Source: Escherichia coli (GTDB taxonomy: Bacteria > Pseudomonadota > Gammaproteobacteria > Enterobacterales > Enterobacteriaceae). Taken from it: DNA of 64,000 nt. Numbering within the stretch: position 1 is the stretch's first letter; each line of letters starts with the position of its first letter. The position numbers were made by a program, and so were the translations under genes. Below are positions 39,778 to 61,924 of the stretch, piece by piece. Where the stretch lies: NCBI RefSeq assembly GCF_003991155.1, contig NZ_CP031297.1. One strand, written 5' to 3'. The notes under the pieces are model-generated. The model was not told the DNA's origin and made no database searches. It saw only the letters and a program-made list of their open reading frames with translations.

Positions 39778-40419
39778 TTATGCTGCTTTTGTTTTCTCGG
39801 CTTCGTCTGCGATTTCCTTGTCGCCGGTTGCAGATTCCGGAGCGGCTTCGGCCACTTCACCTTCTTTGCCTTTGCTGTGGGCGGAAATGCGAGCCCGTTT
39901 CTCGATGCCGATGATTCGACCGGCCAGCTTGATGAGGCGTTGCTGCCATTGGTAAGTGGCGTCGGTGCGCTGCTTGCTGGTCAGTACGGTGTTCAGCCAG
40001 AGAGTGTCAACGATCCCCATCAGGGTATCCAGTTTGCGGATCAGGTGTGCAAACTGAGCAACCTGAGGAGAGTTGATCTCGATGGTGTATTCATTCGGGT
40101 TGGTGTAGCCGGGCATCATGTCGATGCCGTTGTCTTCCATCAGCTTGTTGAGCTGGGCGGTAGCTTTGTCCAGGTCTTCGGAGACCTTGGAAATGTGTTC
40201 CAGGATGACGGTTTCAACCTGGTCGATTTCGTCCTGCTCACCGATGATGCGAAGGATCACGTCGATGGAGAACAGGGAGTTGGAAACTCGCTCAAAGCTG
40301 CGTTCCATGACGCGCTGAGCTTGGAGGCTGTTTACTTTCAGAACTTGCTTGAAAACAGGGCGAGAGTAGTGGTTGCTGCGGTCGTTGTTTGTGTCCAGTG
40401 CTACTTGTGCTTCTGCCAT
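39778..40419 (-). CDS. Hypothetical protein with Lys/Glu-rich C-terminus
   Basis: ATG at 40419 with AGGAG SD (residue 21 of ORF 39778..40479). Confidence 0.75.
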   Translation of the reverse strand: MAEAQVALDTNNDRSNHYSRPVFKQVLKVNSLQAQRVMERSFERVSNSLFSIDVILRIIGEQDEIDQVETVILEHISKVSEDLDKATAQLNKLMEDNGIDMMPGYTNPNEYTIEINSPQVAQFAHLIRKLDTLMGIVDTLWLNTVLTSKQRTDATYQWQQRLIKLAGRIIGIEKRARISAHSKGKEGEVAEAAPESATGDKEIADEAEKTKAA

Positions 40420-40497
40420 TAGAGATACTCCTAAATTTGAGGTACAGATAAACGCACTGGAAAGGATAAATGCGGTCAATCTGTAACCTGACCTCTC

Positions 40498-40530
40498 GAA
40501 GTGCCCAAAATGGACAGTTACAGCGTTTTC
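40498..40530 (+). promoter_or_regulatory. Motif B (GTGCCC-AAAAT-GGAC ... TTACAGCG), copy 6
   Basis: Divergent intergenic region before the array. Confidence 0.4.
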
Positions 40531-40565
40531 TGTTTAGCAAAGGTGAGCTATATTTGAATCATCTT

Positions 40566-40616
40566 AGTCGCTCTGCGGCTATAGGTGAGATAGCTGGTCT
40601 CCGAAAACAAACAGCA
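40566..40616 (+). promoter_or_regulatory. Conserved leader element C, copy 1 (hairpin GAGA-TAGCTGG-TCTC + CGAAAACAAACAGCA)
   Basis: Seven related copies, each before a gene block. Confidence 0.45.
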
Positions 40617-40713
40617 TCTAGTCTTATGCCGTATGGCATTACTTAACCCCAAGCCGGGGGCTTCTCCCGGTTTTCGGGTGTTGCCCCTGTTTTTTTTACA
40701 TAGGAGCAACACC

Positions 40714-41034
40714 ATGCACATCATCACTTTCATTGTAGTTCTGCTTGCATCTCTGGGCGCACTGTACGTAGGCGCGAAGGCATTTGCTTTTTCCTTCATC
40801 GTTCTCGCTAAAGTGTTCCAGCGTATCGGTTTGTTCCTTTGGAACAAATTCGCAGTTCCTGCAATGCGGTCTGTACAGGCCGTCATCAAAGAACGTGCTG
40901 CCAAGGCTGAACAAGCCAAAGCAGTCGTTGAACCTGAGGTAACTCAAGTTCAAGAAGTCGCTAAACAAGAACCTGACTGGGATTATCTCGAAATCCCGAC
41001 TTACCTTCGTAAGGGCAAGGAACTTGTTTGGTAA
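40714..41034 (+). CDS. Small membrane protein carrying an FtsZ C-terminal-peptide-like tail (EPDWDYLEIPTYLRK)
   Basis: ATG at 40714 with AGGAG SD; N-terminal hydrophobic 35 aa; C-terminus matches the FtsZ conserved C-terminal peptide (E. coli ...EPDYLDIPAFLRKQAD, from memory). Confidence 0.75.
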   Translation: MHIITFIVVLLASLGALYVGAKAFAFSFIVLAKVFQRIGLFLWNKFAVPAMRSVQAVIKERAAKAEQAKAVVEPEVTQVQEVAKQEPDWDYLEIPTYLRKGKELVW

Positions 41035-41073
41035 TAACTGTCGCTGAGTAATCTTCGACACTTTCAAACCCAT

Positions 41074-41113
41074 CGGGGCAACCATACCCCGACGGGGATG
41101 TTGCCCCTTTTTG
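41074..41113 (+). terminator. Terminator-like hairpin (GGGGCAAC ... GTTGCCCC + TTTTT)
   Basis: GC stem + T-run after gene 40714..41034. Confidence 0.45.
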
Positions 41114-41128
41114 CTTAGGAGCAACATC

Positions 41129-41221
41129 ATGGAAATCGCTATCATCGCTTTGTGTATCCCTGCTGGTTGGGCAATCTCTCGTCCTTTCGTGAGAATCGCT
41201 GAATCGTTCGGTTACTGCTGA
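41129..41221 (+). CDS. Tiny hydrophobic peptide (30 aa)
   Basis: Same TAGGAGCAACAYCATG context as the preceding gene; MEIAIIALCIPAGWAISRPFVRIAESFGYC. Confidence 0.35.
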   Translation: MEIAIIALCIPAGWAISRPFVRIAESFGYC

Positions 41222-41337
41222 TAGTCAACGCAAAGGGAGGGGGCAACCCCTCTCTTTCTGGTCAAGCCTCTGTGGCTTGTCCTCAAAGTCTTCTGGTGTC
41301 AGTTGGCTTTGACGACAAGCTACAGGGGGAATGTCGA

Positions 41338-41523
41338 ATGCAACAGAATCTTCATGTTTACGACGATCACGCAGGCATCATCTATCTGGCTGATGGACGC
41401 GAGGTGAAATTTGATCCGAAACTGTATTCCAGCTCCTACCAGGCGCACAGTGAAGCAGTGAAGTGGGCCAAAGAAACCGGGGTCATTGGTCAAAACGACG
41501 ATGTGGTGATGTTCGTCCATTGA
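41338..41523 (+). CDS. Small hypothetical protein (61 aa)
   Basis: ATG at 41338 with AGGGGGA SD. Confidence 0.5.
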   Translation: MQQNLHVYDDHAGIIYLADGREVKFDPKLYSSSYQAHSEAVKWAKETGVIGQNDDVVMFVH

Positions 41524-41600
41524 GGGAGTAGCCTCCAGGAGAGGCTACTCTCCTCGCTCCTTAAAAGTCTTCTTACTCATGGTGAATACCATCAGTAAGC

Positions 41601-41660
41601 AGATTTTGTTCTCTTCGGAGAGCGAAAAGTGCGATAGCTGGTCGCCAAAAACAAACAGCA
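41601..41660 (+). promoter_or_regulatory. Leader element C, copy 2 (hairpin CTCTTCGGAGAG, hairpin GCGA-TAGCTGG-TCGC, CAAAAACAAACAGCA)
   Basis: Part of a 121-bp block identical to 46436..46556. Confidence 0.5.
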
Positions 41661-41742
41661 AATTAACGTTAATTTACTAGCCCAACCGGGCGCATCCGCC
41701 CGGTTCGGGACGTGGTGCGCCTGTCACAATAGGAGCGCACCT

Positions 41743-42711
41743 ATGTCTCAATACTCTCAATTCTCAGTAAGCAAGGTTTTCGGTATGCCCAGCATTCCGG
41801 AGAAGGTAACGGCCATCGGCTACGCTGACGGTTCAAACCCTTTCATCCCTGCCACTGATACCAACTACGTTTTCCGCAAAGAGTTTCTGCGAGAGGTCTT
41901 GGCCTATCTCAAAGAGCCTGGCGGTGACGCATTGTTCGTAACCGGCCCTACCGGGTCTGGCAAAACCTCAGGTATCACCGAGATCGCTGGTCGTCTCAAC
42001 TGGCCTGTTCAGCAAATCACTGCCCACGGGCGGATGGAGCTGACAGATCTGATTGGACATCACGCTCTGGTCGCGGAAAAGCCTGGTCAACCACCTGTCA
42101 TGAAGTTCATGTATGGACCTCTGGCAGTCGCTATGCGTGAAGGTCATCTGCTCCTCATCAACGAGGTGGATTTGGCCGACCCTGCCGAGCTGGCTGGTCT
42201 CAACGATGTCCTTGAAGGGCGTCCCCTTGTGATCGCTCAGAATGGCGGGGAAATCATCAAGCCGCACCCGATGTTTCGTGTGGTCGTTACTGGTAACTCT
42301 ACGGGGTCCGGTGATGCTTCTGGTTTGTACCAGGGGGTGATGATGCAGAACCTCGCAGCTATGGATCGCTATCGTTTCACCAAAGTAGGGTATGCGGATG
42401 AGGAAGCTGAACTCAGCATTCTTGGCCGTGCTACTCCGAAACTTCCGGAAAATGTGCGGAAGGGAATGGTTCGGATTGCTAATCAGGTCCGCAAACTGTT
42501 TCTTGGCGAAAACGGTGAAGATGGTCAGATCAGCGTCACCATGTCCACTCGGACGTTGGTGCGTTGGGCGAAACTGTCTCTAGCGTTCCGTGGTGCCCCA
42601 AATGCTCTTGAATACGCCTTGGATCAAGCTCTGCTTATCCGTGCGGCCAAAGAGGAGCGTGAAGCCATCCTGCGTGTTGCGAAGGATGTGTTCGGGGACC
42701 AATGGCGCTAA
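41743..42711 (+). CDS. AAA+ ATPase, MoxR/CobS-like
   Basis: Walker A GPTGSGKTS; Walker B LLLINEVD; 322 aa. Confidence 0.85.
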   Translation: MSQYSQFSVSKVFGMPSIPEKVTAIGYADGSNPFIPATDTNYVFRKEFLREVLAYLKEPGGDALFVTGPTGSGKTSGITEIAGRLNWPVQQITAHGRMELTDLIGHHALVAEKPGQPPVMKFMYGPLAVAMREGHLLLINEVDLADPAELAGLNDVLEGRPLVIAQNGGEIIKPHPMFRVVVTGNSTGSGDASGLYQGVMMQNLAAMDRYRFTKVGYADEEAELSILGRATPKLPENVRKGMVRIANQVRKLFLGENGEDGQISVTMSTRTLVRWAKLSLAFRGAPNALEYALDQALLIRAAKEEREAILRVAKDVFGDQWR

Positions 42712-42721
42712 GAGGTGACGC

Positions 42722-43630
42722 ATGAAGAAAAATGACTGTTTGTGCCGTCGTTACACTGCTAAAGAGTGGGGCAATGACGAAACCACAATAGAAGTCTTCA
42801 TTGGCTACAAGTTGCTCCGGGAGCCCAGCTCCTCGGAGCCAGGCCAATTCACGATGGTCGAGCTACGCCGAACCGTCACTGATGGGAAAGCTGAAAATTG
42901 GTCTGAGACAAAGCTCGAAGGACCTTTTGAAGCTAACGGCCCAGACACGATCCCAATGTCCTACAAGGACAAAGAAAGCCAGTATGTGTCACAGTTTCTC
43001 AGCCAGGGGTACACCTTTCTGGATGAGGTGCTGGTAAACGCAGAGACACAGACGGTGCTGGAAGGGGGGAATGTTTCAGCCGGACAAACAGCCAGCTTGG
43101 GATCTCTCAACTGGCTGTTATCTCCGCCCTCTGAGTTACCTCCAGGTGACATAAACCTCTTCAAAGGTTTTGTTGCTGGGGTTTTTGCCAAAGGAGCCGG
43201 TTTAATCGGCTTTGAGGTTGCTCGGAGCGAAGGCTCAAATGACTTGCTACCCAGTGTGCTGATGCGTACTGACAGCGGTTATGAGCTTGGGGTTAGCACT
43301 GGACTAGGCGAAAACACTATCCATCCAGCTACGCTGGAAGGCGCTGGTGAACTCCGCCCGGAACATGGTCACAAACCCCTGCTGATGTTGGTTTACCTGC
43401 AACAGCGTTTCGCGGATGACTTTTCAAACGTAGAGAAGCCGCTGGTGGCATTCTGTGATGAACAGGGTGATACCTTCGACTACGAGCGTTTTGATTCACT
43501 AAAACCCCTCATTGAACGGTTTGGTTTCAGCTACGACGAAGTAAGAGCAGATGCAGAAAGGCTTGGCCTTGTATCTGAGCTGATTCGCCTGGCAGAGATC
43601 GACGCCGAACAAGAGGATCACTTTTTTTAA
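42722..43630 (+). CDS. Hypothetical protein
   Basis: AGAGGTGA SD; 302 aa. Confidence 0.8.
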   Translation: MKKNDCLCRRYTAKEWGNDETTIEVFIGYKLLREPSSSEPGQFTMVELRRTVTDGKAENWSETKLEGPFEANGPDTIPMSYKDKESQYVSQFLSQGYTFLDEVLVNAETQTVLEGGNVSAGQTASLGSLNWLLSPPSELPPGDINLFKGFVAGVFAKGAGLIGFEVARSEGSNDLLPSVLMRTDSGYELGVSTGLGENTIHPATLEGAGELRPEHGHKPLLMLVYLQQRFADDFSNVEKPLVAFCDEQGDTFDYERFDSLKPLIERFGFSYDEVRADAERLGLVSELIRLAEIDAEQEDHFF

Positions 43631-43675
43631 CCCTTACGGGGGCTTGCTCCCCGAAAGGGGCGTTGGCCCTCTCCA
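43629..43675 (+). repeat. Intercistronic GC-hairpin element (AACCC-N-CGGGGG...CCCCG type), example 1
   Basis: Starts at the preceding stop codon; one of at least 17 similar elements between genes from 43.6 to 63.8 kb. Confidence 0.6.
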
Positions 43676-43693
43676 AATAACTTGGAGGTCATG

Positions 43694-44221
43694 ATGTCTA
43701 AAGGCGTCAACAAAGTAATTCTGGTCGGTAATCTCGGTTCTGACCCGGAAATTCGCTACATGCCAAGCGGCACTGCCGTTGCCAACTTCAACGTTGCAAC
43801 AACGGATACGTGGCGCGATAAGCAGTCTGGCGAGCAAAGAGAGCATACTGAGTGGCACCGTATTGTGCTTAAAGGTCGTTTGGCGGAAGTCGCTGGTGAG
43901 TACCTGAAAAAGGGCTCCCAAGTCTATCTCGAAGGGAGCAACCGCACCCGGAAGTGGACTGACAGCCAACAAATCGAGCGCTACACCACCGAAGTACACT
44001 GCGTTGAAATGCAGATGCTTGGTGGTCGTGGAAATGCACCTCAGGACAACTCTCAACGTGCAGCGCCCCAAAAAGGGCAACGTACAGGAGCCGGTACGCA
44101 ATCTGCTCCTGTGCAGCAATCAGCACCGCAAGGTGGTATGGGCGGAGGCTATGGTCCCGCTCCTGATGGCTGGGATGATGACATCCCGTTCATGCGGCTG
44201 CACCACTTGGCTGGCGGGTAA
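43694..44221 (+). CDS. ssb: Single-stranded DNA-binding protein
   Basis: OB-fold N-terminus, Gly/Gln-rich linker, acidic tail DDDIPF. Confidence 0.95.
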
Positions 44222-44238
44222 CACCGCCAACTCTTACT

Positions 44239-44284
44239 AAACCCCACGGGGGCACTCATGCCCCGAGGGGGTCATGGTGTCCTC
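44239..44284 (+). repeat. Intercistronic GC-hairpin element, example 2 (CATGGTGT pairs with ACACCATG at the recT start)
   Basis: Upstream segment is complementary to the SD/start region. Confidence 0.6.
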
Positions 44285-44315
44285 AAACCGTTCATTCGTG
44301 AATTGGAGAAACACC

Positions 44316-45305
44316 ATGTCTGATAACAAATCTCTTGTAACCCGTATCGCAAGCCGGTTTGGCGTGGACACCCGAAAGTTCTATGAAACTTTGAAGGCGA
44401 CCGCATTCAAGCAGCGAGATGGAAGTGCCCCGACCGATGAGCAGATGATGACGCTCCTGATCGTGGCTGAACAGTACGGTTTGAACCCTTTCACTCGGGA
44501 AATCTATGCGTTTCCTGACAAGCAAAATGGGATCATTCCGGTAGTAGGTGTTGATGGTTGGAGCCGCATCATCAACGAGCATCCCCAGTATGATGGCGTC
44601 GAGTTCGTGTATTCGGACAAGATGGTCAGAATGCAGGGGGCGAAAGTTGACTGCCCTGAGTGGATTGAATGCGTGATTTACCGTAAGGACAGATCTCGCC
44701 CTATCCGCATCAAGGAGTTCATTGATGAGGTGTACCGTGAACCGTTTCAGGGTCAAGGTCGCAATGGTGCTTACACTGTTGATGGCCCCTGGCAAACGCA
44801 CACCAAGCGTCAACTCCGGCACAAGTCGCTGATCCAGTGTTCTCGTGTCGCATTTGGTTTCTCTGGTATTTATGACCAGGATGAAGCTGAACGCATCCGT
44901 GAAATGGAGCAGGCATCGGCCATTAACCCGGCTATTGCCAATCTCCCTTCACCATCTCAAGTTCAAAGCCAAGAGCCTTTGGCTATTGAGCACAAAGAGC
45001 TTGACCCGATCCTAACCAAACTCGCAAATCGCGCCATTGCTGAAAACGCATGGTCTGCGGCGCATGAGTATGTGAAGGGACGGTATGAAGGTTCGGAACT
45101 GCAATATGCGACTCAATTCCTTCGTGACAAGGAGATGGATCAAATGGAGCCTCCGAAACCTGACTACCAGGAAGCGCACGAGCAAGAGTCCGCCGCTGGT
45201 GGTTCTGCAAATGCTGAACCTGGTGCCGAAGAAATGCCGCCTTTGAGTGACGAGGACATGATCCCTGTTACAGAAGAGGAGGGCGCGGAAGGCAGTTACT
45301 ACTAA
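44316..45305 (+). CDS. recT: RecT/Red-beta-like single-strand annealing protein (tentative family assignment)
   Basis: ATG at 44316 with GGAGA SD; followed by YqaJ-type exonuclease; acidic C-terminus. Confidence 0.7.
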   Translation: MSDNKSLVTRIASRFGVDTRKFYETLKATAFKQRDGSAPTDEQMMTLLIVAEQYGLNPFTREIYAFPDKQNGIIPVVGVDGWSRIINEHPQYDGVEFVYSDKMVRMQGAKVDCPEWIECVIYRKDRSRPIRIKEFIDEVYREPFQGQGRNGAYTVDGPWQTHTKRQLRHKSLIQCSRVAFGFSGIYDQDEAERIREMEQASAINPAIANLPSPSQVQSQEPLAIEHKELDPILTKLANRAIAENAWSAAHEYVKGRYEGSELQYATQFLRDKEMDQMEPPKPDYQEAHEQESAAGGSANAEPGAEEMPPLSDEDMIPVTEEEGAEGSYY

Positions 45306-45346
45306 CCCCAACGGGGGGGACTCCCCCGCTGGGGGAGATCTCCCTC
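45303..45346 (+). repeat. Intercistronic GC-hairpin element, example 3
   Basis: CGGGGGG-act-CCCCCG hairpin then GGAGATCTCC palindrome. Confidence 0.6.
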
Positions 45347-45367
45347 CTAACCATTGGAGAGAGGTCC

Positions 45368-46378
45368 ATGAAAATAGTCAACCTATCGCAACGCGAGGAA
45401 GATTGGCTTGATTGGCGGCGTCAAGGTGTAACAGCCACTGACGCCGCTATCCTGCTCAATCGGTCTCCGTACAAAACACGATGGAGACTGTGGGCCGAGA
45501 AGACTGGGTATGCGCGTGAAGTCGATCTGAGTCTTAATCCGCTGGTTCGCCGGGGGATAGAAAACGAAGATGCTGCAAGACGCGCTTTCGAGGAGAAGTA
45601 TGATGACATGCTGCTCCCCGCCTGTGTCGAATCGGTTCAATACCCGCTCATGAGGGCCTCCCTGGATGGCCTGAGAGATAACGGGGAGCCCGTCGAGCTG
45701 AAAAGCCCGAGTGCGACTGTCTGGGAAGATGTTTGTGCTGAGAAAGCAAACAGCAAGGCATACCAGCTTTATTACCCGCAGGTGCAACACCAGCTCCTGG
45801 TAACGGGGGCCAAGCAAGGCTGGTTAGTCTTCTACTTTGAAGGTCAGATTCAGGAGTTTCCAATACTCCGAGACGAAGCCATGATTCAAGAAATCTTGGC
45901 CGAGGCTAAAAAGTTCTGGCAACAGGTAGTAGACAAGAAGGAGCCCGACAAAGATCCAGAGAGAGACCTGTACATACCGCAAGGTGAAGAGGTCAACCGT
46001 TGGATTGCTGCTGCTGAGGAATACCGCCTCTATGATGCAGAGATTCAGGAGCTGAAACAGCGACTGTCTGAGCTTCAAGAAAGGCAAAAGCCTCATCTCG
46101 ACACCATGAAGTCCCTCATGGGGGAATACTTCCATGCCGACTACTGCGGTGTGATGGTAACGAGATACAAAGCGGCTGGCCGGGTAGACTACAAAAAGCT
46201 GTTGGCTGATAAGGCGTCAGGCGTGAAGCCTGAGGATGTTGACCAGTACAGAGAGAAGTCATCAGAGCGGTGCCGTGTAACGGTTACTGGCTCTGTGAAG
46301 CCACGGTACATTGTTGATGAGGACGTGCTTGCTCCTCTTGATGATTTGCCGGAAGAAGTAGAGACGTTCTACTGGTGA
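45368..46378 (+). CDS. YqaJ-like recombination exonuclease
   Basis: N-terminal TATDAAILLNRSPYKTRWRLW pattern; 336 aa. Confidence 0.8.
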   Translation: MKIVNLSQREEDWLDWRRQGVTATDAAILLNRSPYKTRWRLWAEKTGYAREVDLSLNPLVRRGIENEDAARRAFEEKYDDMLLPACVESVQYPLMRASLDGLRDNGEPVELKSPSATVWEDVCAEKANSKAYQLYYPQVQHQLLVTGAKQGWLVFYFEGQIQEFPILRDEAMIQEILAEAKKFWQQVVDKKEPDKDPERDLYIPQGEEVNRWIAAAEEYRLYDAEIQELKQRLSELQERQKPHLDTMKSLMGEYFHADYCGVMVTRYKAAGRVDYKKLLADKASGVKPEDVDQYREKSSERCRVTVTGSVKPRYIVDEDVLAPLDDLPEEVETFYW

Positions 46379-46435
46379 GTGGGGGATTTTCCCCCGCTTT
46401 CCCTTGGGGATTCTGGGAGTCTCCAACGGAAAGCA

Positions 46436-46495
46436 AGATTTTGTTCTCTTCGGAGAGCGAAAAGTGCGATAGCTGGTCGCCAAAAACAAACAGCA
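46436..46495 (+). promoter_or_regulatory. Leader element C, copy 3 (identical to copy 2)
   Basis: 121-bp identity with 41601..41721. Confidence 0.5.
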
Positions 46496-46577
46496 AATTA
46501 ACGTTAATTTACTAGCCCAACCGGGCGCATCCGCCCGGTTCGGGACGTGGTGCGCCCCCAACTTTTTGGAGTGCATC

Positions 46578-47855
46578 ATGACTAAAGTGAACCATCTACA
46601 AAGCCTCTGTGTTATCCACGTAGACTTTGACATCTGGAGTGGACAAACCCGTTTGTCTGCATCTGATCTCAAGCTGGGCGAGGGTGGTGAAATTCCACCT
46701 GAGAAAGTAGCTCAACTGGGAAGTAAGAAGATCTGTGATCCGGCTAAGCTGAAAGGCTTTCATCGCCTGAAAACAGAAACTCGTCGCCTCCTGCTGAAAT
46801 TCGGTATGCCGTTCATGAACGGATTTGCCGTACCCGTCAGCAAGACCGATGAAATCTGTAACAAGCTGAATGACATCAACTTTCAGTTTAACCAACTGAA
46901 ACAGGATTTCATCAAAGGTTACAACAAAGCCGTGGATGAATGGTGTCAGGAGAACCCTGAGTATGAACGAGCTATCCGTGCCGGAGCCCTTCCAAAGGAA
47001 ACGGTCGAGGAGCGGATTGGCTTTGAGTACCAGGTGTTCATGATCCAGCCTGTGAACGAAGATGAGGCCAACGCCAAACGCCTTAACCGCAAGGTTGAGC
47101 GCCTGGGTGACGATCTCATCTCCGAAGTGGTTCAGGAAGCGAATAAGTTCTATATGGAACGTTTGGCCGGTCGAGACCAATGTGCGGTCACTACTCGGCA
47201 GACACTCCGTAACATCCGCGACAAGGTGGATGGGCTTAGCTTCCTGAACAGCGCTTTTAACCCTCTGGTCAAGCTGCTCGACCAAACCCTCCGGGGATAC
47301 GAGCAACATGCCGATGGCCGAAACATCGTTGCGCCTTTCTTTTATCAGGTCGTGGCCGCAGTGCTGATCATGAGCGAGAGGGACCGCATCGAGCAGTATG
47401 CCAATGGCTCGATTACTGTAGAGGGCATGGCTAATGACATTGGCGGTTCGGGAGCCCAGATGGGGGACCGTTCTAAAGATGAAAAGGCCGAACAGAAAAG
47501 CGATAAAGCCGGTGAGCTTATCCCTGCAACAGAGGGTGGCGAAACCAAGCAGCAACAGGTAGGTGGTACTGAATCTGTTCAATCAGAACAGACTAACAGC
47601 GGTGGTAACTCTGTTGACCTGGATGAAGACATCGACAACTTCTTCAAGAGTTTTGCAGAACGAGGCGAGGGTGAATCGGAAGATGAATCCAATGCCGGTG
47701 ATGTGGTTCGAGAAGAGCGTGTTGATGTTGAGGATGAGCTGGTTTTGCCTGAGGAAACTCCGGTAGAGCAAGAGCCTGTCCAAGAGGAGACGACAGAGGA
47801 GCCTCTCAACCAGGAGCTGCCTAAAACTGACGACGATGGCGACTATTTCTTCTAA
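46578..47855 (+). CDS. Hypothetical protein with acidic C-terminal tail
   Basis: ATG at 46578 with GGAG SD; 425 aa. Confidence 0.8.
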   Translation: MTKVNHLQSLCVIHVDFDIWSGQTRLSASDLKLGEGGEIPPEKVAQLGSKKICDPAKLKGFHRLKTETRRLLLKFGMPFMNGFAVPVSKTDEICNKLNDINFQFNQLKQDFIKGYNKAVDEWCQENPEYERAIRAGALPKETVEERIGFEYQVFMIQPVNEDEANAKRLNRKVERLGDDLISEVVQEANKFYMERLAGRDQCAVTTRQTLRNIRDKVDGLSFLNSAFNPLVKLLDQTLRGYEQHADGRNIVAPFFYQVVAAVLIMSERDRIEQYANGSITVEGMANDIGGSGAQMGDRSKDEKAEQKSDKAGELIPATEGGETKQQQVGGTESVQSEQTNSGGNSVDLDEDIDNFFKSFAERGEGESEDESNAGDVVREERVDVEDELVLPEETPVEQEPVQEETTEEPLNQELPKTDDDGDYFF

Positions 47856-47939
47856 TAGTCACTTCAACTAAACCGACCCGGAGGGGATAGCCATTCCCTC
47901 CAGGGGTGGACTATCTCCTTCCCTACCAGGAGAAAAGAT

Positions 47940-49736
47940 ATGTCCAAAAAACGCACCATTTACAGCGCTCTACCAATCGTGGCCGCAGCCTATGGTGAAA
48001 AACTCGGTGTCAAAGTCGCCATCGGTAACGATGACGCATACACCGATGGTAAGACCATCGTGGTTCCGAATATCCCCGACGACTATCCTCACATGGATGC
48101 TGTCTGGGGGTATTTGGCCCATGAAGCAGCCCATGTCCGGTTTACGGACTTTGGTGTTGAGCGCCGCAGAGGTCTTCATGCTGAGTTGTCCAACGTTTTG
48201 GAGGACTGCCGCATAGAACGGGCCATGATGGAACTCTTCCCCGGTACGTCGCAGACCCTGAATGAGGTTGCTCGCTATATGGCTCAAGCTGGTCATTACG
48301 AGCACGTCACAGACAAAGAGGCCCCTGCCTCCATTCTGACAGGGTTTTGTTTGTACTGGTTGCAAACCAAGGCTGTAGGGCAATCCGTCCTTCAACCCTA
48401 TCTCGATTCGGCTACCCCCGTATTCGAGCGCGTGTTCCCTCAGGGTGTTGTTGTTCGGCTGAACGCTTTACTGCGTAAGGCTGTGAACACTAAGTCAACC
48501 GCAGAGGTGACATCCTTGGCCGACCAAATCATCAAGATGATCGAGGAGGAAAAGGAGAAAGAAGAGCAAAAGCCCCAGAATGGTCAGGATGGTAACAACC
48601 AGCAGAATGCTGGTGGCAACCAACCTCAGAACAGTCAGGGCGGAAGTGGTAACGATCAAAACCAAGGGCCTGATGCCAATGGTGGTGATCAGCAAGGTAA
48701 AGACCAGAAGCAAGACGATGCTAACGGGAAATCTGATCCGAAAGGACAGGGCGACCAAGGCAAGTCGGATACTGATGGTGGCAGCAAGGCAGGACAAAGC
48801 CAGGCTGGTGGCAATTCTGACGCGGCGAAACAAGACGCGGCCAAAATGCTCCAGCAGGTTCTGAATGCCGGTGCCGGTGATTTGCGTGGTGACGCGCATG
48901 ATGCACTTAAAGCCGAGCTCAACCGGGTGGCTCAAGATAAGGGGGACAGTAGCTATATGACTGTTCGCTCTGCTGTGAACACCCAGGACAACCCTGCTGT
49001 TGGCAAAAGCCTGGTAGGGGATGTGAAGAGCACCACTTCAAAGATAAGAACGCAGCTCTACGGATTGGTCCAGGCCAGCCAGCGAGTTGCTCACCGTAAC
49101 CAACGATCAGGGAAGCGTGTGGATGCTCGGAAACTACATCGTGTAGTGACGGGTGATACCCGCGTATTCCTCAAGCCAGAAGCCAAGAAACGCCCTAATA
49201 CGGCGGTTCACATCCTGGTTGATATGAGCTCCTCGATGGCCTACAAGGCCGCCAATGGAAAGGAGCGTCAAGACATTGCGCGGGAAGCGTCCTTGGCTAT
49301 TTCGATGGCTCTGGAAGCAATACCCGGCGTAAACCCGGCAGTCACCTTTTTTGGTGGCAACCGGAACCAGCCAGTGTTCAGTGTCGTGAAGCATGGAGAT
49401 ACGGTTCAGAATCGGGCCGGTCGGTTTGGGTTCAAAGCAACTGGCGGTACGCCTATGGCGGAAGCTATGTGGTATGCAGCTTTTGAACTCACCAAGACCC
49501 GTGAAGAGCGAAAAATGTTGATCGTAGTGACTGACGGGCAGCCTCAAAGAGCCCCGGCATGTCGCTCAGTGATTGACCTCTGTGAACGAAGCGATGTTGA
49601 GGTGATCGGCATAGGGGTAGAGACTACCGCAGTGTCAGGACTGTTCCAAAAGAACATTGTCATTGATGATGCGGCAGCTCTGCAACGCACACTGTTTAAG
49701 TTGATGGAGCGGTCATTGACTGCTTTTGCAGCTTAA
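47940..49736 (+). CDS. VWA-domain protein, CobT-like architecture (N-domain, Gln/Gly/Asp-rich linker, C-terminal VWA)
   Basis: MIDAS motif VDMSSSM, then GGTPM and VTDGQP. Confidence 0.85.
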   Translation: MSKKRTIYSALPIVAAAYGEKLGVKVAIGNDDAYTDGKTIVVPNIPDDYPHMDAVWGYLAHEAAHVRFTDFGVERRRGLHAELSNVLEDCRIERAMMELFPGTSQTLNEVARYMAQAGHYEHVTDKEAPASILTGFCLYWLQTKAVGQSVLQPYLDSATPVFERVFPQGVVVRLNALLRKAVNTKSTAEVTSLADQIIKMIEEEKEKEEQKPQNGQDGNNQQNAGGNQPQNSQGGSGNDQNQGPDANGGDQQGKDQKQDDANGKSDPKGQGDQGKSDTDGGSKAGQSQAGGNSDAAKQDAAKMLQQVLNAGAGDLRGDAHDALKAELNRVAQDKGDSSYMTVRSAVNTQDNPAVGKSLVGDVKSTTSKIRTQLYGLVQASQRVAHRNQRSGKRVDARKLHRVVTGDTRVFLKPEAKKRPNTAVHILVDMSSSMAYKAANGKERQDIAREASLAISMALEAIPGVNPAVTFFGGNRNQPVFSVVKHGDTVQNRAGRFGFKATGGTPMAEAMWYAAFELTKTREERKMLIVVTDGQPQRAPACRSVIDLCERSDVEVIGIGVETTAVSGLFQKNIVIDDAAALQRTLFKLMERSLTAFAA

Positions 49737-49753
49737 CAGGAAGTGAAACGACA

Positions 49754-49787
49754 AACGGCTATCCCTTCGGGGGTGGCCGTTTTTATT
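49754..49787 (+). terminator. Possible intrinsic terminator
   Basis: ACGGC...GCCGT stem with inner CCCTTCGGGG, followed by TTTTTATTT. Confidence 0.4.
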
Positions 49788-49797
49788 TGGAGAGTCT

Positions 49798-50133
49798 ATG
49801 AACCAATTCCATTCATCTTTGGATTTGTATCATCGGAACAAAGGTAGAAGGGCTACAGTGCCGGAGACGCCTTTTTTACTGCTTGCTAAGCGCATTCCTC
49901 CGATGTACTGGAGACTGTTCCAGGGTGTTACTTTGGATAGTCGTATGGGATACACAGGCAGGCGGCAGTTCCACCGTCTTGGGCAAGCAATCGACTGGGC
50001 AAAGTCATCAGTTGGCGATTCCTGGTCAAATAAGCGCTTTCACAAGCCGGTAGGCCTCGATGTATTGCTGGCCTGTACTGCGAGTAAGGTGCCTGAACAT
50101 CTGGTCGAAGAACTGAAAAGACGGGGCAGTTGA
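49798..50133 (+). CDS. Hypothetical protein
   Basis: GGAGA SD; 111 aa. Confidence 0.7.
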   Translation: MNQFHSSLDLYHRNKGRRATVPETPFLLLAKRIPPMYWRLFQGVTLDSRMGYTGRRQFHRLGQAIDWAKSSVGDSWSNKRFHKPVGLDVLLACTASKVPEHLVEELKRRGS

Positions 50134-50145
50134 TGCGTCTTTGAG

Positions 50146-50178
50146 CTTTGCACCCGAAAAGGGCAGTTTGAGCGTTCC
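50146..50178 (+). promoter_or_regulatory. Motif B (GCACCC-GAAAA-GGGC ... TTTGAGCG), copy 7
   Basis: Stem GCCC/GGGC with GAAAA loop. Confidence 0.4.
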
Positions 50179-50267
50179 TGTTCACACAGCTCTCGTGGAA
50201 CAATCAAAGTGAGGAGGGAATACCCTCCCACTTTCTCAGAGGCCTTCATTGAGGGTTGCTGAGAAAG

Positions 50268-50327
50268 TGAATTTTGTCCTCTCTGAGGGCGAAACGTGCG
50301 ATAGCTGGTCGCCAAAAACAAACAGCA
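50268..50327 (+). promoter_or_regulatory. Leader element C, copy 4
   Basis: CCTCTCTGAGGG hairpin, GCGATAGCTGGTCGC hairpin, CAAAAACAAACAGCA. Confidence 0.5.
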
Positions 50328-50397
50328 TTCAACCTCAGCCTAAGGGCGCACTGCGCCTGACAGGCTCTGTGTGCCCAAGTTACTTTAAGGAGCACAC

Positions 50398-50937
50398 ATG
50401 TCTCATCTGAACAATCTCAAATCCGTAATGATCTCTCTCGCCGCCGAACATAAGCTGCCTGAAATCTACCAGGATGACATCACTACCGATGTGGAGTCTC
50501 TGGATCGATTCGATGGTTTACGTCTGGTCTGGCTGTTGCGGTCTTGCGGCAGCGTATTGGTGCCAGCGGAAGTTGGCGTTAATCCGATCTATATCACCCA
50601 TTGGTTGTGGTCTAACCACGGTCAACAGGTGGTTCCATTCTCTGTGGATACCCGCACGGGGTTGATTGAAAAAATCGACTTCGAGCAAGCTGAAAAGCTG
50701 ATCATGCAGATGCCTTGCAACCTCTCTTCATTGCAGAACAAGGAATACTTGGTTGACCAGGTAAACCGAGTATTGCAACGAGGTTGTGAAATGCGTATCT
50801 GGGGTATCTTCGAGTCTCCAAGCTCGGTGGAATCCGTTGGTGGTTGGAAAGAGTGGCAGAGCTATTTCAGCTCTACTGGGAATCGACTGATGGCCGATTT
50901 CGTTGGTAAAGCCATTCGATTCACCAACCCTCGATAA
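50398..50937 (+). CDS. Hypothetical protein
   Basis: AAGGAG SD; 179 aa. Confidence 0.75.
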   Translation: MSHLNNLKSVMISLAAEHKLPEIYQDDITTDVESLDRFDGLRLVWLLRSCGSVLVPAEVGVNPIYITHWLWSNHGQQVVPFSVDTRTGLIEKIDFEQAEKLIMQMPCNLSSLQNKEYLVDQVNRVLQRGCEMRIWGIFESPSSVESVGGWKEWQSYFSSTGNRLMADFVGKAIRFTNPR

Positions 50938-51027
50938 ATCGCCGTTCAACCATTAACCCTAATTAACCCTATGGGGCTCCGATAGCCCTGAGGGGACGGG
51001 GCTCCGCAATCGCAATAAGGAGTCCCT

Positions 51028-51528
51028 ATGAAAAACCTATCAGCTTTGGAAGCAGTTCTTGACTACGACAAACCTTCTCGACGTTTTCTTGATGAGCTCA
51101 ACGAAAACCAGATGAAGGATTTGTCCGGGGAAATCTTCGCCAAGCTCTACTGGAGCAAGCGTAATCCCCAGTGGTACGAGAAAGACACCAATCGGCTGTT
51201 TGCACGACTTCGTTGGGTTCAGCGCATCATCAAGAAGCGCTTGAAAACCGGCAAGGTTAAACCTGAACTGACAGAAAATGGTTCAGTGATGGAGCGCTTC
51301 AACTTCCCTTATGGTGACACTCTCGATTTCTTCCATCGGTACTTGCGACATCCCAAATGGGAGGTTGTGTATCAAGAATCGGGGTGCAGTGCCTTTTGGA
51401 AAAATGAAGCAACGCTTGAGCTATGCACCTACTGCGAAGGTGATGTGGTCATGATGAAGGCTCCTGATGAAGCAACCTTCTTTCGTGATTGCAATCGCCT
51501 TAGCTGGTGGTATGCAGATAACGCTTGA
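51028..51528 (+). CDS. Hypothetical protein
   Basis: AAGGAG SD; 166 aa. Confidence 0.75.
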   Translation: MKNLSALEAVLDYDKPSRRFLDELNENQMKDLSGEIFAKLYWSKRNPQWYEKDTNRLFARLRWVQRIIKKRLKTGKVKPELTENGSVMERFNFPYGDTLDFFHRYLRHPKWEVVYQESGCSAFWKNEATLELCTYCEGDVVMMKAPDEATFFRDCNRLSWWYADNA

Positions 51529-51601
51529 TCTTAATCCCTAACCAGGGGCGAACCGGCCCCTGATGGGAGCATGGTGCGCCCCATCTATGATGGAGGACGC
51601 C

Positions 51602-52486: not shown

Positions 52487-52551
52487 CCCAACCGGGGCGT
52501 GACATCCCGGAGGGGATTGGTCGCGCTCATCAACAACAAAGGAGCGTGACC

Positions 52552-52776: not shown

Positions 52777-52837
52777 CCCATCCGGAGGAGCCTTTCCTGC
52801 GGGTGGGGCTCCTCTATCCATTACGAGGAGAAACACT

Positions 52838-53669: not shown

Positions 53670-53673
53670 TCCT

Positions 53674-53949: not shown

Positions 53950-54006
53950 CCCACGGGGCCGCTCTTCCTGATGGGAGACGGTCCTCCATTCTCAAAGGAG
54001 AAGACC

Positions 54007-54198: not shown

Positions 54199-54266
54199 CT
54201 ATGACTGTAACCCCACTGGGGGCTTCATGCCCCTGTGGGGGCATGGTGCCCGTAAAAGGAGTCACC

Positions 54267-54661: not shown

Positions 54662-54681
54662 TTTGTGCCCCTCGGAAAGCA

Positions 54682-54741
54682 AGATTTTGCTCTCTGTCGA
54701 GAGTGAATAGTGAGGTAGCTGGCCTCCCCAAACAAACAGCA
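54682..54741 (+). promoter_or_regulatory. Leader element C, copy 5 (stems CTCTC/GAGAG and GAGG/CCTC)
   Basis: Stem sequences differ from other copies while base pairing is kept. Confidence 0.5.
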
Positions 54742-54811
54742 TTCTACATAACCCTTGGGGGATCACTGCCCCTCGGGCTGGTGGTTCCCTGACAAACATG
54801 GAGCCACAACT

Positions 54812-55156: not shown

Positions 55157-55164
55157 GCAATCTA

Positions 55165-55233
55165 CTAACCCTAAACCGGGTGCATCCGCCCGGTTCGGGA
55201 CGTGGTGCGCCCCCAAACTATTTGGAGTGCATC
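55165..55233 (+). repeat. Intercistronic hairpin/leader identical over about 60 bp to the leader at 46498..46577
   Basis: CCGGGYGCATCCGCCCGGTTCGGGACGTGGTGCGCCCCCAA...TTGGAGTGCATC shared. Confidence 0.6.
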
Positions 55234-55536
55234 ATGGAAAAACATAACCTCAAATCCGGATTCAGCATCTATTTCGCTGACGTCCATTTCGAGAAACAAG
55301 TCTACGCATTCGGCTCAGGACTTGGCTTCACCTCTGTGATTTACGCCTACTCGCTGGGCCGAGATCCGGAAGAAGCTGAGAAGCTGGCGCTTGAAAAGTA
55401 CGACTCTGACGAAACGAAGGTGAAGAAGGTGCATGTCAATCTGGCTCGCAGCCAGGACATCAACCGCTACACCTTCCCTGAACAAATGGCTGGCTTTGCT
55501 AATGCCATTCAGTCTCACGGCATCGCTGTGAACTGA
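55234..55536 (+). CDS. Hypothetical protein
   Basis: ATG at 55234 with GGAG SD. Confidence 0.7.
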   Translation: MEKHNLKSGFSIYFADVHFEKQVYAFGSGLGFTSVIYAYSLGRDPEEAEKLALEKYDSDETKVKKVHVNLARSQDINRYTFPEQMAGFANAIQSHGIAVN

Positions 55537-58454: not shown

Positions 58455-58523
58455 TTCCCAGGGTGCTTCGGAAAGTGCCTTAGGCGCTCAAGTGCGGTAG
58501 CTGGCTGCCAAAAACAAACAGCA
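58455..58523 (+). promoter_or_regulatory. Leader element C, copy 6
   Basis: GCGGTAGCTGGCTGCCAAAAACAAACAGCA. Confidence 0.45.
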
Positions 58524-58591
58524 AATTATCAACCCTGACGGGAGCACCTCCTGTTAGGGGGGCTCCGTCATAAACTGAACGGAGATATAGC

Positions 58592-61599: not shown

Positions 61600-61657
61600 T
61601 ACTCTTTGTTCATTGTCAGCGCTTGCTGGCTATAACGGTAGCTGGCCCAAAACAGCA
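61600..61657 (+). promoter_or_regulatory. Leader element C, copy 7 (divergent)
   Basis: GGTAGCTGGCCCAAAACAGCA. Confidence 0.35.
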
Positions 61658-61720
61658 ATAACCTAACCCCTCGGGAGGAAACCCCTCCTGGGTTCTCTCC
61701 CACAAACAAAGGAGAGAAGC

Positions 61721-61924
61721 ATGAGCCTAGACAAGTTAAGTCGGCTGGTGGACCAACAACGAAAGATCCAGGATGAAATCGACAATGAAATCATTCTGGC
61801 CGTCAAAGAGGTGTTGGCTACAAACTCAGTCGGTTTAGCCCGTGAGCTTGTTGGGGGTGTCCCGCAAGATCATCCATTCCATCCGTTTTTACTCGCTATA
61901 GCTAAGCAGCTTGACCCGAGATAA
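61721..61924 (+). CDS. Small hypothetical protein (67 aa)
   Basis: AAGGAGAGAAG SD. Confidence 0.65.
   Translation: MSLDKLSRLVDQQRKIQDEIDNEIILAVKEVLATNSVGLARELVGGVPQDHPFHPFLLAIAKQLDPR

What the first reader, a model, noticed from the sequence alone, without database searches (positions are those of the whole stretch)
41601..41721. 121-bp leader duplicated exactly, with a third partial copy
The block from AGATTTTGTTCTCTTCGG to GTGGTGCGCC at 41601..41721 is identical to 46436..46556. About 60 bp of it recurs nearly identically at 55165..55233, running through the SD and into the ATG. The three downstream genes are unrelated in sequence. Exact identity across kb-scale distances suggests recent duplication, gene conversion, or recombination-driven shuffling of gene blocks behind a common leader.
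Basis: seen in the sequence. Interest (0 to 1): 0.5.

Follow-up and report, generated by a model that had tools for sequence, protein, structure and literature searches.

The report
Repeated structured mRNA leader, IncC plasmid
The duplicated 121-bp block is two copies of a known intergenic repeat of IncC resistance plasmids (rptI), a folded mRNA leader in front of defence-evasion genes that gene conversion keeps identical and that recombination occasionally uses to delete the genes between copies.

Summary
In detail: 41601-41721 equals 46436-46556 exactly, and its 3' 43 nt recur at 55174-55216 with one mismatch. The window is IncC plasmid backbone.

The two blocks are the best-matched pair of a family of six full copies in the window, plus one degenerate copy. 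They are the rptI repeats of Roy et al. 2020. That study showed that the plasmid's Bet/Exo recombinase anneals them to rescue Cas3-cut plasmids.

The copies are not promoters. They lie inside AcaCD-dependent transcripts, as a 5' UTR or between cistrons.

Each has a conserved RNA architecture:
- a 10-bp hairpin;
- a 5-bp hairpin with an invariant AGCUG loop;
- an invariant A-rich tail ending in CAGC, which probably pairs with that loop as a pseudoknot;
- a GC-rich hairpin;
- a hairpin that occludes the Shine-Dalgarno sequence.

Covariation across 131 distinct copies from alpha-, beta- and gammaproteobacterial mobile elements supports the two hairpins strongly.

The exact identity reflects concerted evolution. 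IncA and IncC each homogenised their own pair, whereas an Edwardsiella relative keeps them 67% alike. Gene order is fixed. Four of 861 plasmids carry the predicted deletion junction and none the reciprocal one, so block shuffling is not supported.

The repeat is already known. The widespread RNA motif appears undescribed, and its function is unknown.

The parts
41601..41742 (+). E2: leader of vcrx089 (AAA ATPase, first gene of the hde operon). 41601-41721 is the exact repeat. SL1 41604-41627, SL2 41631-41645, tail with CAGC 41646-41660, palindrome AATTAACGTTAATT 41661-41674, SL3 ~41681-41708, SL4 (SD hairpin) ~41709-41740, ATG 41743.
   Evidence: RNA fold z = -4.4; CM hit of 85.7 bits; annotation
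46436..46577 (+). E3: leader of vcrx094 (DUF3150). 46436-46556 is identical to E2. The SL4 3' arm differs (GGAGUGCAUC) and pairs with the shared 5' arm through two G.U wobbles. ATG 46578.
   Evidence: z = -4.6
55174..55235 (+). Third, partial copy: the 3' module only (SL3 plus the SL4 5' arm, then an E3-like SD region) in front of a 100-aa ORF (ATG 55236).
   Evidence: (D7 98%, D5 79%)
40560..40713 (+). E1: 5' UTR of vcrx087. It starts at the AcaCD-dependent TSS (pVCR94 65081-65083, about window 40560) and is ~155 nt long. ATG 40714.
   Evidence: PMC4207636 Table S3 mapped through gene offsets; (z = -4.8)
50259..50397 (+). E4: leader of vcrx098, ~50 nt downstream of the predicted AcaCD-dependent start (box at 50151).
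54671..54811 (+). E5: leader of a 114-aa ORF (ATG 54812).
58467..58591 (+). E6: leader of a 128-aa ORF (ATG 58592). Its SL1 is of another sequence type (AGUGCC-UUA-GGCGCU). Its SL2 stem is GCGG/CUGC.
61605..61721 (+). Degenerate copy directly after the AcaCD promoter of vcrx114: AACGGTAGCTGGCCCAAAACAGCA, with a shortened tail.
   Evidence: 19.6 bits, E = 0.9
40502..40516 (+). AcaCD box of the divergent vcrx086/vcrx087 promoters. It drives the transcript that contains E1, E2 and E3.
   Evidence: PMC4207636 Table S3; RT-PCR in PMC7498323
50151..50165 (+). AcaCD box of the vcrx098 promoter (upstream of E4).
49753..49782 (+). Strong intrinsic terminator (13-bp stem, UUCG loop, T-run) after the VWA gene. 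It is the likely end of the P087 transcription unit.

Best explanation
The 121-bp block is one member, present twice in identical form, of a family of structured mRNA leaders. These are the 'rptI' repeats of IncC plasmids. They precede gene blocks of the AcaCD-activated, non-tra 'establishment and defence-evasion' operons between traN and traF.

Shown:
- The copies lie inside AcaCD-dependent transcripts, either right after the TSS or between cistrons.
- They carry no promoter of their own.
- They fold on the sense strand into SL1 (a ~10-bp hairpin) and SL2 (5 bp, with an invariant AGCUG loop closed by U.G), followed by an invariant tail (C)AAAAYAAACAGYA. A variable GC-rich hairpin (SL3) and a hairpin that pairs the Shine-Dalgarno sequence (SL4) follow, just before the ATG.

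Inferred:
- The SL2 loop GCUG pairs with the tail CAGC, giving a compact H-type pseudoknot with an A-rich third loop.
- The leader acts post-transcriptionally. SL4 gates translation. SL1 and the pseudoknot act as a 5' stabiliser or as a docking site for a trans-acting factor not yet identified.

The exact identity of E2 and E3 is a by-product of repeated gene conversion between paralogous leaders, by host RecA or by the plasmid's own Bet/Exo. The same homology mediates deletions. Natural plasmids have lost the vcrx089-exo block precisely between the two copies, and Bet/Exo single-strand annealing between family members rescues Cas3-cut plasmids.
For: Identity of the sequence: the window is IncC backbone, 100% identical to hundreds of IncC plasmids.

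Already described: Roy et al. 2020 (PMC7498323) describe the intergenic rptIa-f repeats, all partial copies of a 155-bp rptIb. They are conserved in IncC, and a 32-bp piece occurs in SGI1. They are used by Bet/Exo for repair, with deletions of 9268-23702 bp. After conversion to pVCR94 coordinates, E2->E4 is 9268 bp and E1->E4 is 10311 bp. The reported values are 9268 and 10310. The 32-nt piece is found at 100% in an SGI1-like record (H150).

Transcribed, not promoters:
- Genes vcrx087-103 rise from 3-9 to 2800-11000 expression units only with AcaCD.
- AcaCD boxes lie only at 40502, 50151 and 61552.
- RT-PCR puts vcrx087, 089, bet and 094 on one mRNA.
- Sigma70-like sites are depleted, 3 found against 12.7 expected.
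- The TSS of vcrx087 (5'-RACE) and of SGI1 S018 (primer extension, 135 nt before the ATG; PMC5058578) fall 5-7 nt before SL1.

Structure:
- In 33 copies from 5 plasmids, 96% of cells are paired.
- In 131 distinct copies from alpha-, beta- and gammaproteobacterial elements, SL2 is 99.8% paired with double compensatory changes at 4 of 5 pairs. SL1 has them at 6 of 6 pairs. 0 of 500 shuffles reach the observed score.
- G.U pairs are frequent and A.C pairs are rare, so the sense strand is the one that folds.
- 16 of 55 SL1 tetraloops are UNCG or GNRA.
- Fold z-scores are -4.4 to -4.8.
- SL4 arms differ between copies but always pair. E2 has GGUGCGC/GCGCACC in IncC and AGAUGCG/CGCAUCU in the Aeromonas plasmid.

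Pseudoknot: the loop and tail can pair in 99.8% of cells. Both loop G->A variants carry tail C->U (L009, L040). Tail C->U alone gives G.U. RNAfold picks this helix in four leaders.

Concerted evolution and recombination.
Against: - No experiment shows what the 5' module does, and no binding factor is identified.
- The pseudoknot rests mostly on invariant bases. Only two independent compensatory events support it, and one low-scoring copy has a mismatch (CCGC).
- The distant copies were retrieved with an exact pattern that fixes the loop and the tail. That inflates their apparent invariance.
- The motif is essentially absent from 2.9 million viral contigs, although phages carry similar ssb/recT/exo genes. 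That would fit a conjugation-specific, possibly ssDNA-level, role as well as an RNA role.
- I could not see Table 2 or Fig. S1 of Roy et al., so the assignment of individual rptI letters to E1-E7 is uncertain. Some reported distances fit E1 as rptIb and others fit E2.
- It is not shown which recombination system performs the conversion.
Confidence: 0.75

Rival explanations
1. The repeats exist primarily as DNA-level homology 'scaffolds'. They would be selected because the plasmid's Bet/Exo single-strand-annealing system can use them to repair double-strand breaks made by CRISPR-Cas or restriction during entry. Any RNA structure would be incidental.
For: Roy et al. 2020 showed that all rescued plasmids recombined at such repeats. 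They suggest that Bet/Exo systems co-evolved with sets of repeats. Natural deletion variants exist. The identity of E2, E3 and E7 maximises the annealing substrate.
Against: Selection for homology alone would not produce compensatory base changes that keep hairpins while changing sequence. It would not place copies at a fixed distance from transcription starts and start codons. It would not keep the motif in single copies such as SGI1 S018. Most family members share only ~30-70 nt. The two roles are not exclusive.
Confidence: 0.15
2. The conserved hairpin plus tail acts in single-stranded DNA of the transferred strand. It would be a priming signal (ssi) for complementary-strand synthesis in the recipient, reiterated through the establishment region so that it becomes double-stranded and expressible quickly.
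For: The motif is confined to conjugative elements of Proteobacteria and is absent from phage contigs. All copies are co-oriented. It is associated with genes that act on entry (ssb, recT/exo, methylases, anti-restriction). The invariant loop contains CTG, which I recall as the DnaG initiation trinucleotide (own knowledge, not tested).
Against: SL1 starts 5-7 nt after mapped TSSs in three independent promoters. The 5' module is tightly coupled to the SD-occluding hairpins. SL1 is enriched for UNCG and GNRA loops, which stabilise RNA rather than DNA. No copy occurs elsewhere on the 158-kb plasmid, where priming would also be needed. Mobilisation screens found no extra cis-acting transfer site here (PMC5587640).
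Confidence: 0.1
3. The 5' module is a processive-antitermination loading site, nut/boxB-like or ops-like. It would be placed after each promoter and reiterated within long operons, and recognised by a host RfaH or NusG-type factor or by a small N-like protein.
For: It is located just after AcaCD promoters and again after terminator-like hairpins inside the operons. SL2 has 5 bp and a 5-nt loop, like boxB (own knowledge). E6 and most betaproteobacterial copies read GCGGTAGC, which is the ops core.
Against: The ops consensus GGCGGTAGnnTG is not met. The base corresponding to G5 is A in 4 of 6 window copies, and the spacing to TG is one base short. Stem covariation points to an RNA hairpin, not to a non-template DNA element. 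No NusG- or RfaH-like ORF was found in the window or in the fetched parts of five related plasmids. That search used phmmer with query sequences recalled from memory, at E<=10.
Confidence: 0.08
4. Each copy is an internal promoter cassette, so that the gene blocks are independent transcription units with duplicated regulatory DNA.
For: Rockhopper split the operons exactly at the elements: vcrx089-exo, vcrx094-095, vcrx098-103. A 14-bp perfect palindrome, AATTAACGTTAATT, in E2, E3 and E7 could be an operator.
Against: No -35/-10 match was found. There is no AcaCD ChIP-exo peak at E2 or E3. Expression is abolished without AcaCD. RT-PCR shows one mRNA from P087 through 094.
Confidence: 0.04

Closest known systems
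rptI repeats of IncC plasmid pVCR94 (Roy, Huguet, Grenier & Burrus 2020, NAR 48:8815)
   Same: Same plasmid family and same intergenic positions. The repeats are partial copies of a ~155-bp unit. A 32-bp core occurs in SGI1. The reported deletion sizes match distances between copies. Those authors also predicted an RNA structure that sequesters the vcrx089 RBS.
   Different: They treated the repeats as DNA substrates for Bet/Exo annealing and reported them as IncC-specific by blastn. This report adds the hairpin covariation, the pseudoknot proposal, the two-module anatomy, the concerted evolution, and the distribution in alpha- and betaproteobacterial elements.
5' UTR of SGI1 S018 (Muranyi et al. 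2016, PLoS One 11:e0164561)
   Same: An AcaCD-dependent promoter followed by a 135-nt 5' UTR. That UTR contains an E1-type copy whose core is identical over 32 nt. The downstream gene is a vcrx087-like small membrane protein.
   Different: It is a single copy on a genomic island. The paper mapped the TSS but did not analyse the UTR.
Small H-type pseudoknot cis-regulators with an A-rich third loop (preQ1-I riboswitch; T4 gene 32 5' pseudoknot; IncI/IncB repZ activator pseudoknot)
   Same: A 5-bp stem, a short second helix formed by the hairpin loop, and an A-rich linker. The position is tens of nucleotides upstream of a structured ribosome-binding site. Helix 2 is invariant while helix 1 is free to covary.
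   Different: No Rfam family matches, PreQ1 included. The hairpin loop has only 5-7 nt, so there is no ligand-pairing loop as in preQ1-I. No ligand, protein or antisense RNA is known. The resemblances are recalled from memory and not tested beyond Rfam.
ops/JUMPStart (RfaH) and lambda nut boxB sites
   Same: Placed in leaders of long horizontally acquired operons, and reiterated. The GCGGTAGC core is present in some copies. The hairpin size is like boxB.
   Different: The ops consensus is not met in most copies. No cognate factor was found. The covariation indicates that the RNA hairpin matters rather than the sequence of the non-template strand.
Intercistronic stabiliser hairpins and REP/BIME-type repeats in polycistronic mRNAs
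   Same: Repeated structured intergenic sequences that segment operons. RNA-seq operon calls break at the elements.
   Different: These copies are gene-proximal, coupled to the SD, and have invariant single-stranded motifs. They are specific to mobile elements.

Membership tests
rptI repeat family of IncC plasmids (Roy et al. 2020) | Intergenic repeats in the IncC backbone that are partial copies of a ~155-bp unit | tested here: met
   Six copies plus one degenerate copy, all intergenic. E1 measures ~155 nt from the TSS to the ATG.
rptI repeat family of IncC plasmids (Roy et al. 2020) | Distances between copies equal the reported Bet/Exo deletion sizes | tested here: met
   In pVCR94 coordinates, E2->E4 is 9268 bp and E1->E4 is 10311 bp, against 9268 and 10310 reported. 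E2->55174 copy is ~14081 vs 14076, and E2->E7 is ~23712 vs 23702. The letter assignment remains ambiguous because their Table 2 is not held.
rptI repeat family of IncC plasmids (Roy et al. 2020) | A 32-bp segment 100% identical in SGI1 | tested here: met
   H150: query positions 40-71, 100% identity in an SGI1-like Salmonella record, downstream of an AcaCD box.
AcaCD-binding site / AcaCD-dependent promoter | Core GCCCAAAATGGGC ~35 nt upstream of a -10 box, with a ChIP-exo peak | tested here: not met
   No such core lies within 41601-41721 or 46436-46556. No peak is listed there.
Sigma70 promoter | -35 and -10 hexamers with 16-18 nt spacing | tested here: not met
   No site falls in any element. 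The region is depleted, 3 found vs 12.7 expected.
ops element (RfaH recruitment) | 12-nt consensus GGCGGTAGnnTG on the non-template strand | tested here: not met
   Window copies read G(C/A)G(A/G)TAGCTGG. The G5 position is A in 4 of 6 copies, and TG lies one base too close.
Rfam families (including PreQ1, other pseudoknot riboswitches, small ribozymes) | Covariance-model score at or near the gathering threshold | tested here: not met
   No hit at gathering over the whole window. No relevant hit at E<=5 in 40000-59500.
Intrinsic terminator | GC-rich hairpin followed by a U-tract | tested here: not met
   SL3 of E2 and E3 is followed by UUCGGG, and the scan reports none in the elements. E1's SL3 has UUUU, which is borderline.
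Mobile repeat (MITE/IS-derived) | Terminal inverted repeats, target duplications, and variable insertion sites between relatives | tested here: not met
   Copies sit at orthologous positions in all relatives examined. No inverted termini were seen in the alignments.
H-type RNA pseudoknot | Hairpin-loop bases pair with a downstream single strand, with covariation | tested here: inconclusive
   99.8% of cells are pairable. There are two independent G-C to A-U double changes and several G.U, but 3 of the 4 pairs have no double compensatory change (one never varies). No structure probing is possible with these tools.

The most novel reading that the evidence does not exclude
The 5' module (SL1, then the SL2/AGCUG-loop pseudoknot with its A-rich tail ending in CAGC) is an undescribed, widely distributed cis-regulatory RNA motif of proteobacterial conjugative elements. 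It marks the leaders of establishment and anti-defence genes: ssb, recT/recE-type nucleases, vcrx089 anti-restriction ATPase, DUF3150, RadC and DNA methyltransferases. It would be read by a conserved trans-acting partner, a protein or a small ligand, that switches these genes on at the right moment of transfer.
Probability: 0.45. Interest if true: 0.7.

Novelty: already known. Interest (0 to 1): 0.4.

Why it matters
IncC plasmids are major carriers of multidrug resistance. The genes behind these leaders (vcrx089/090, ssb, bet, exo) let the plasmid survive restriction and CRISPR on entry into a new host.

The repeats have two practical consequences:
- They are the homology at which cut plasmids are repaired.
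- They are the homology at which the defence-evasion operon is occasionally lost. Four natural Salmonella plasmids have lost it this way.

For annotation, the finding is explained and needs no new category.

The part worth pursuing is the conserved RNA architecture. If the pseudoknot module is a real regulatory switch shared by conjugative elements of three proteobacterial classes, it would be a common post-transcriptional control point for establishment genes. It would also be a convenient sequence marker for such gene islands.

Tried and rejected
- AcaCD box: I first suspected the repeat core was the AcaCD or SetCD operator. The published motif (GCCCAAAATGGGC) is different, and the real boxes lie elsewhere.
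- Rfam: no hits at gathering or at the relaxed threshold.
- Promoter and terminator scan: nothing in the elements.
- RNase E site: AGAUUUUG before SL1 looked like a cleavage site. Folding shows that UUUUG pairs with CGAAAA as the base of SL1, so I dropped this idea.
- ops/RfaH and a plasmid NusG paralogue: the consensus is not met. phmmer with RfaH and NusG sequences recalled from memory found nothing in ORFs of the window or of L001 and L004-L009. About 30 kb of the IncC plasmid were not examined.
- pVCR94 itself (KF551948) is not in the collections. Its coordinates were therefore mapped through published gene positions.
- Supplementary files of Roy et al. are not held, so the rptI letters could not be assigned.
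- Transfer direction of IncC: the nic site is not determined, so a test based on the transferred strand was impossible.
- Viral contig scan: two hits. One is chance, inside a tape-measure gene. The other is a plasmid-like fragment.
- A loose structural regex meant to find pseudoknot variants was mostly noise.

Full report
OBSERVATION. Reading the three sites and the repeat finder confirm that 41601-41721 and 46436-46556 are identical over 121 nt. The last 43 nt recur at 55174-55216 with one mismatch. That third copy then follows copy 2 through the Shine-Dalgarno sequence and the ATG (79% over 39 nt). A 36-nt piece had 3 matches, against none in 100 shuffles. The downstream genes are unrelated.

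The core TAGCTGG-N3-CC-N-AAAACAAACAGCA occurs six times, always on the + strand and always between genes. The sites are 40591, 41635, 46470, 50302, 54716 and 58498 (E1-E6), with zero expected by chance.

WHERE IT IS. The window is the backbone of an IncC (IncA/C2) conjugative resistance plasmid, 100% identical to hundreds of records. The region runs from traN through vcrx087-088, the AAA ATPase vcrx089, vcrx090, ssb, bet and exo. It continues through DUF3150 (vcrx094), a VWA protein, then methyltransferases, a PAPS reductase and many small ORFs.

ALREADY DESCRIBED. Roy et al. 2020 (PMC7498323) named these sequences rptIa-f. They are intergenic, all are partial copies of a 155-bp rptIb, they are conserved in IncC, and a 32-bp piece occurs in SGI1.

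After a Cas3 cut next to exo, every rescued plasmid had recombined between such repeats, through the plasmid's Bet/Exo single-strand-annealing system. The deletions measured 9268 to 23702 bp.

I converted window positions to pVCR94 coordinates with published gene positions. The results, each against the reported value, are:
- E2->E4: 9268 bp against 9268.
- E1->E4: 10311 bp against 10310.
- E2 to the 55174 copy: about 14081 bp against 14076.
- E2 to a seventh copy just beyond the window (L001 27522): about 23712 bp against 23702.

I also recovered the 32-nt SGI1 piece (H150). Their Table 2 and supplements are not held, so I cannot assign the letters with certainty. The same paper shows that vcrx089-090 counter type I restriction, that ssb-bet-exo allow CRISPR evasion, and that vcrx087, 089, bet and 094 lie on one mRNA.

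NOT PROMOTERS. AcaCD ChIP-exo peaks and boxes lie at window 35883 (traN), 40502 (vcrx086/087), 50151 (vcrx098) and 61552 (vcrx114). None lies at E2 or E3. All genes from 087 to 103 are silent without AcaCD (3-9 against 2800-11000 expression units). Sigma70-like sites are depleted, 3 against 12.7 expected.

The 5'-RACE start of vcrx087 maps about 6 nt before E1's first hairpin. In SGI1, primer extension places the S018 start 135 nt before the ATG, which is 5-6 nt before the same hairpin (PMC5058578). So the elements are transcribed, as a 5' UTR (E1, E4, and the degenerate copy after P114) or between cistrons (E2, E3, E5, E6).

ANATOMY. Each leader has two modules.

The 5' module has three parts:
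- SL1, a ~10-bp hairpin: UUUUGUUCUC-UUCG-GAGAGCGAAAA in E2 and E3.
- SL2: 4 variable pairs plus a U.G closing pair around an AGCUG loop.
- An invariant tail, (C)AAAAYAAACAGYA.

The 3' module has two parts:
- AACCC followed by a long GC-rich hairpin (SL3).
- A hairpin (SL4) whose 3' arm or loop holds the SD, ending 1-5 nt before the ATG.

The 3' module also occurs alone, before many other genes (41063, 44237, 50965, 53947, 54209, 55544, 63737).

EVIDENCE FOR STRUCTURE. In 33 distinct copies from IncC and from four diverged plasmids (V. rumoiensis, Aeromonas, Edwardsiella, pAQU-like pVAS19), 96% of cells pair. SL2 never fails to pair.

A covariance model found copies only on the gene strand. It found none in the tra operons or in the other 100 kb examined of an IncC plasmid.

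Many were multi-copy, same-strand arrays. The organisms included Rhodocyclaceae, Sulfuritalea, Accumulibacter, Dechloromonas, Gallionella and Lautropia (beta). They also included a Rhodospirillaceae MAG and Pseudovibrio (alpha), and Photorhabdus, Marinomonas, Marinobacter, Shewanella and Vibrio (gamma).

On 131 distinct model hits:
- SL2 is 99.8% paired, with double compensatory changes at 4 of 5 pairs. About 16 different stem sequences occur.
- SL1 has double changes at all 6 pairs.
- No shuffle or register shift comes close to the observed score.

G.U pairs abound, so the sense strand is the folded one. 16 of 55 SL1 tetraloops are UNCG or GNRA. Fold energies have z-scores of -4.4 to -4.8.

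SL4 also covaries. E2 has GGUGCGC/GCGCACC in IncC and AGAUGCG/CGCAUCU in the Aeromonas plasmid.

PSEUDOKNOT PROPOSAL. The loop GCUG is complementary to the tail CAGC. They are separated by the SL2 3' arm and ~10 A-rich nucleotides, which is the geometry of a compact H-type pseudoknot. The evidence is as follows:
- The helix is pairable in 99.8% of cells.
- Both copies with loop G->A also have tail C->U. They come from two unrelated elements (L009, L040).
- Tail C->U alone gives G.U.
- One weak copy has a mismatch.
- RNAfold chooses this helix in four leaders.

The evidence is suggestive, not conclusive. Most positions never vary, and the retrieval pattern fixed them.

WHY E2 AND E3 ARE IDENTICAL. 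The paralogues compare as follows:
- IncC: 100% identical.
- IncA: 1 difference, yet both copies carry an IncA-specific SL1 (GUCCUCUCUGAGGGC) and an extra T.
- V. rumoiensis type: 96%.
- Aeromonas plasmid: 90%, with a shared private linker (AACGAACGTTTTTTT).
- Edwardsiella plasmid: 67%, with a different 3' half in E2.

Paralogues that share derived states within each lineage are the signature of repeated gene conversion.

The tract ends inside SL4. In IncC, the E3 5' arm reads GGUGCGC, as in E2. It pairs with its own 3' arm through two G.U wobbles, one more than the single wobble of the GAUGCGC arm kept in Aeromonas and Edwardsiella. This suggests conversion from E2 into E3.

The leaders are also more conserved than the flanking genes. 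E2 is 98% and 89% identical to its orthologues, against 93% and 81% for the region.

SHUFFLING TEST. Gene order is the same in all relatives. The predicted deletion junction is present, full length and exact, in 4 of 861 plasmid records. All four are Salmonella. The DUF3150 gene sits exactly where vcrx089 normally starts. The reciprocal junction occurs in none.

FUNCTION. The following is shown:
- The leaders are transcribed, structured and conserved.
- The SD is occluded.
- They are associated, across taxa, with establishment and anti-defence genes. These are a RecE-like nuclease, vcrx089, SSB, a vcrx087-like membrane protein, DUF3150, RadC, Dcm, RecT and others.

Inferred: the leaders provide post-transcriptional control. 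SL4 gates translation, as Roy et al. also suspected for vcrx089. SL1 and the pseudoknot act as a 5' stabiliser and/or as the docking site of an unknown factor.

Four rivals remain:
- A purely DNA-level role as annealing scaffolds.
- An ssDNA priming signal. This is favoured by the absence of the motif from phage contigs. It is disfavoured by the fixed spacing from transcription starts and by the RNA-type loops.
- A nut- or ops-like antitermination site. The ops consensus is not met, and no NusG-like ORF was found.
- Internal promoters, which are contradicted by the expression data.

VERDICT. The conserved RNA architecture and its spread beyond IncC appear to be unreported. They are the only part that deserves follow-up.

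Noticed in passing
window 41063-41129, 44237-44273, 50965-51027, 53947-54007, 54209-54268, 55544-55613, 63737-63801: A stand-alone '3' module' precedes many genes of this region that lack the 5' module. It consists of AACCC, a long GC-rich hairpin, and then a hairpin enclosing the SD just before the ATG. The arms differ from gene to gene but always pair.
   Followed up: partly
window 41661-41674 and 46496-46509 (also E7, L001 ~27548): A perfect 14-bp palindrome, AATTAACGTTAATT, lies in the linker of E2, E3 and E7 only. Its core AACGTT is kept in the Aeromonas, Edwardsiella and pVAS19 copies. It could be a small RNA hairpin or a DNA operator.
   Followed up: no
window 41130-41222: An unannotated ~30-codon ORF (MEIAIIALCIPAGWAISRPFVRIAESFGYC) has its own SD hairpin module. 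It lies between vcrx087 and vcrx088.
   Followed up: no
window 40000-59500: Sigma70-like promoter matches are strongly depleted on both strands (3 found, 12.7 +/- 4.1 expected). This fits a region driven only by AcaCD class II promoters.
   Followed up: no
window 54812-55156 vs L008 26278-26480: In the Edwardsiella plasmid, the 114-aa ORF behind E5 is absent. A decayed SD hairpin (GGAG changed to TGAG) is followed directly by the 55174-type module. Genes therefore appear to be gained or lost between modules.
   Followed up: partly
L003 (CP082599.1) and NZ_CP025245.1, NZ_CP016013.1, CP082440.1: Four Salmonella IncC plasmids lack the whole vcrx089-exo defence-evasion operon, through a clean deletion between the two 121-bp copies.
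   Followed up: yes
L001 (NZ_CP023948.1) 23999-24700: This K. pneumoniae IncC plasmid lacks ~11 kb between a truncated vcrx098 and vcrx114, relative to the window. The endpoints were not examined for repeats.
   Followed up: no
L131 (IMGVR_UViG_3300011314_000013) and L022-L025 (NHHQ01000038.1, Rhodospirillaceae TMED167 MAG): A 4.6-kb 'viral' contig is the same sequence as an IncC-like element binned with a marine alphaproteobacterium. It probably is a plasmid fragment rather than a virus. The 43.6-kb MAG contig carries at least 8 copies of the leader, before vcrx087-, vcrx089- and DUF3150-like genes.
   Followed up: partly
window 41525-41600 and 46381-46435: Each internal copy is preceded by a terminator-like hairpin without a clear T-run: GAGTAGCCTC...GAGGCTACTC after vcrx088, and GGGGGATTTTCCCCC after exo. 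These may be 3' stabilisers of the upstream mRNA segment.
   Followed up: no
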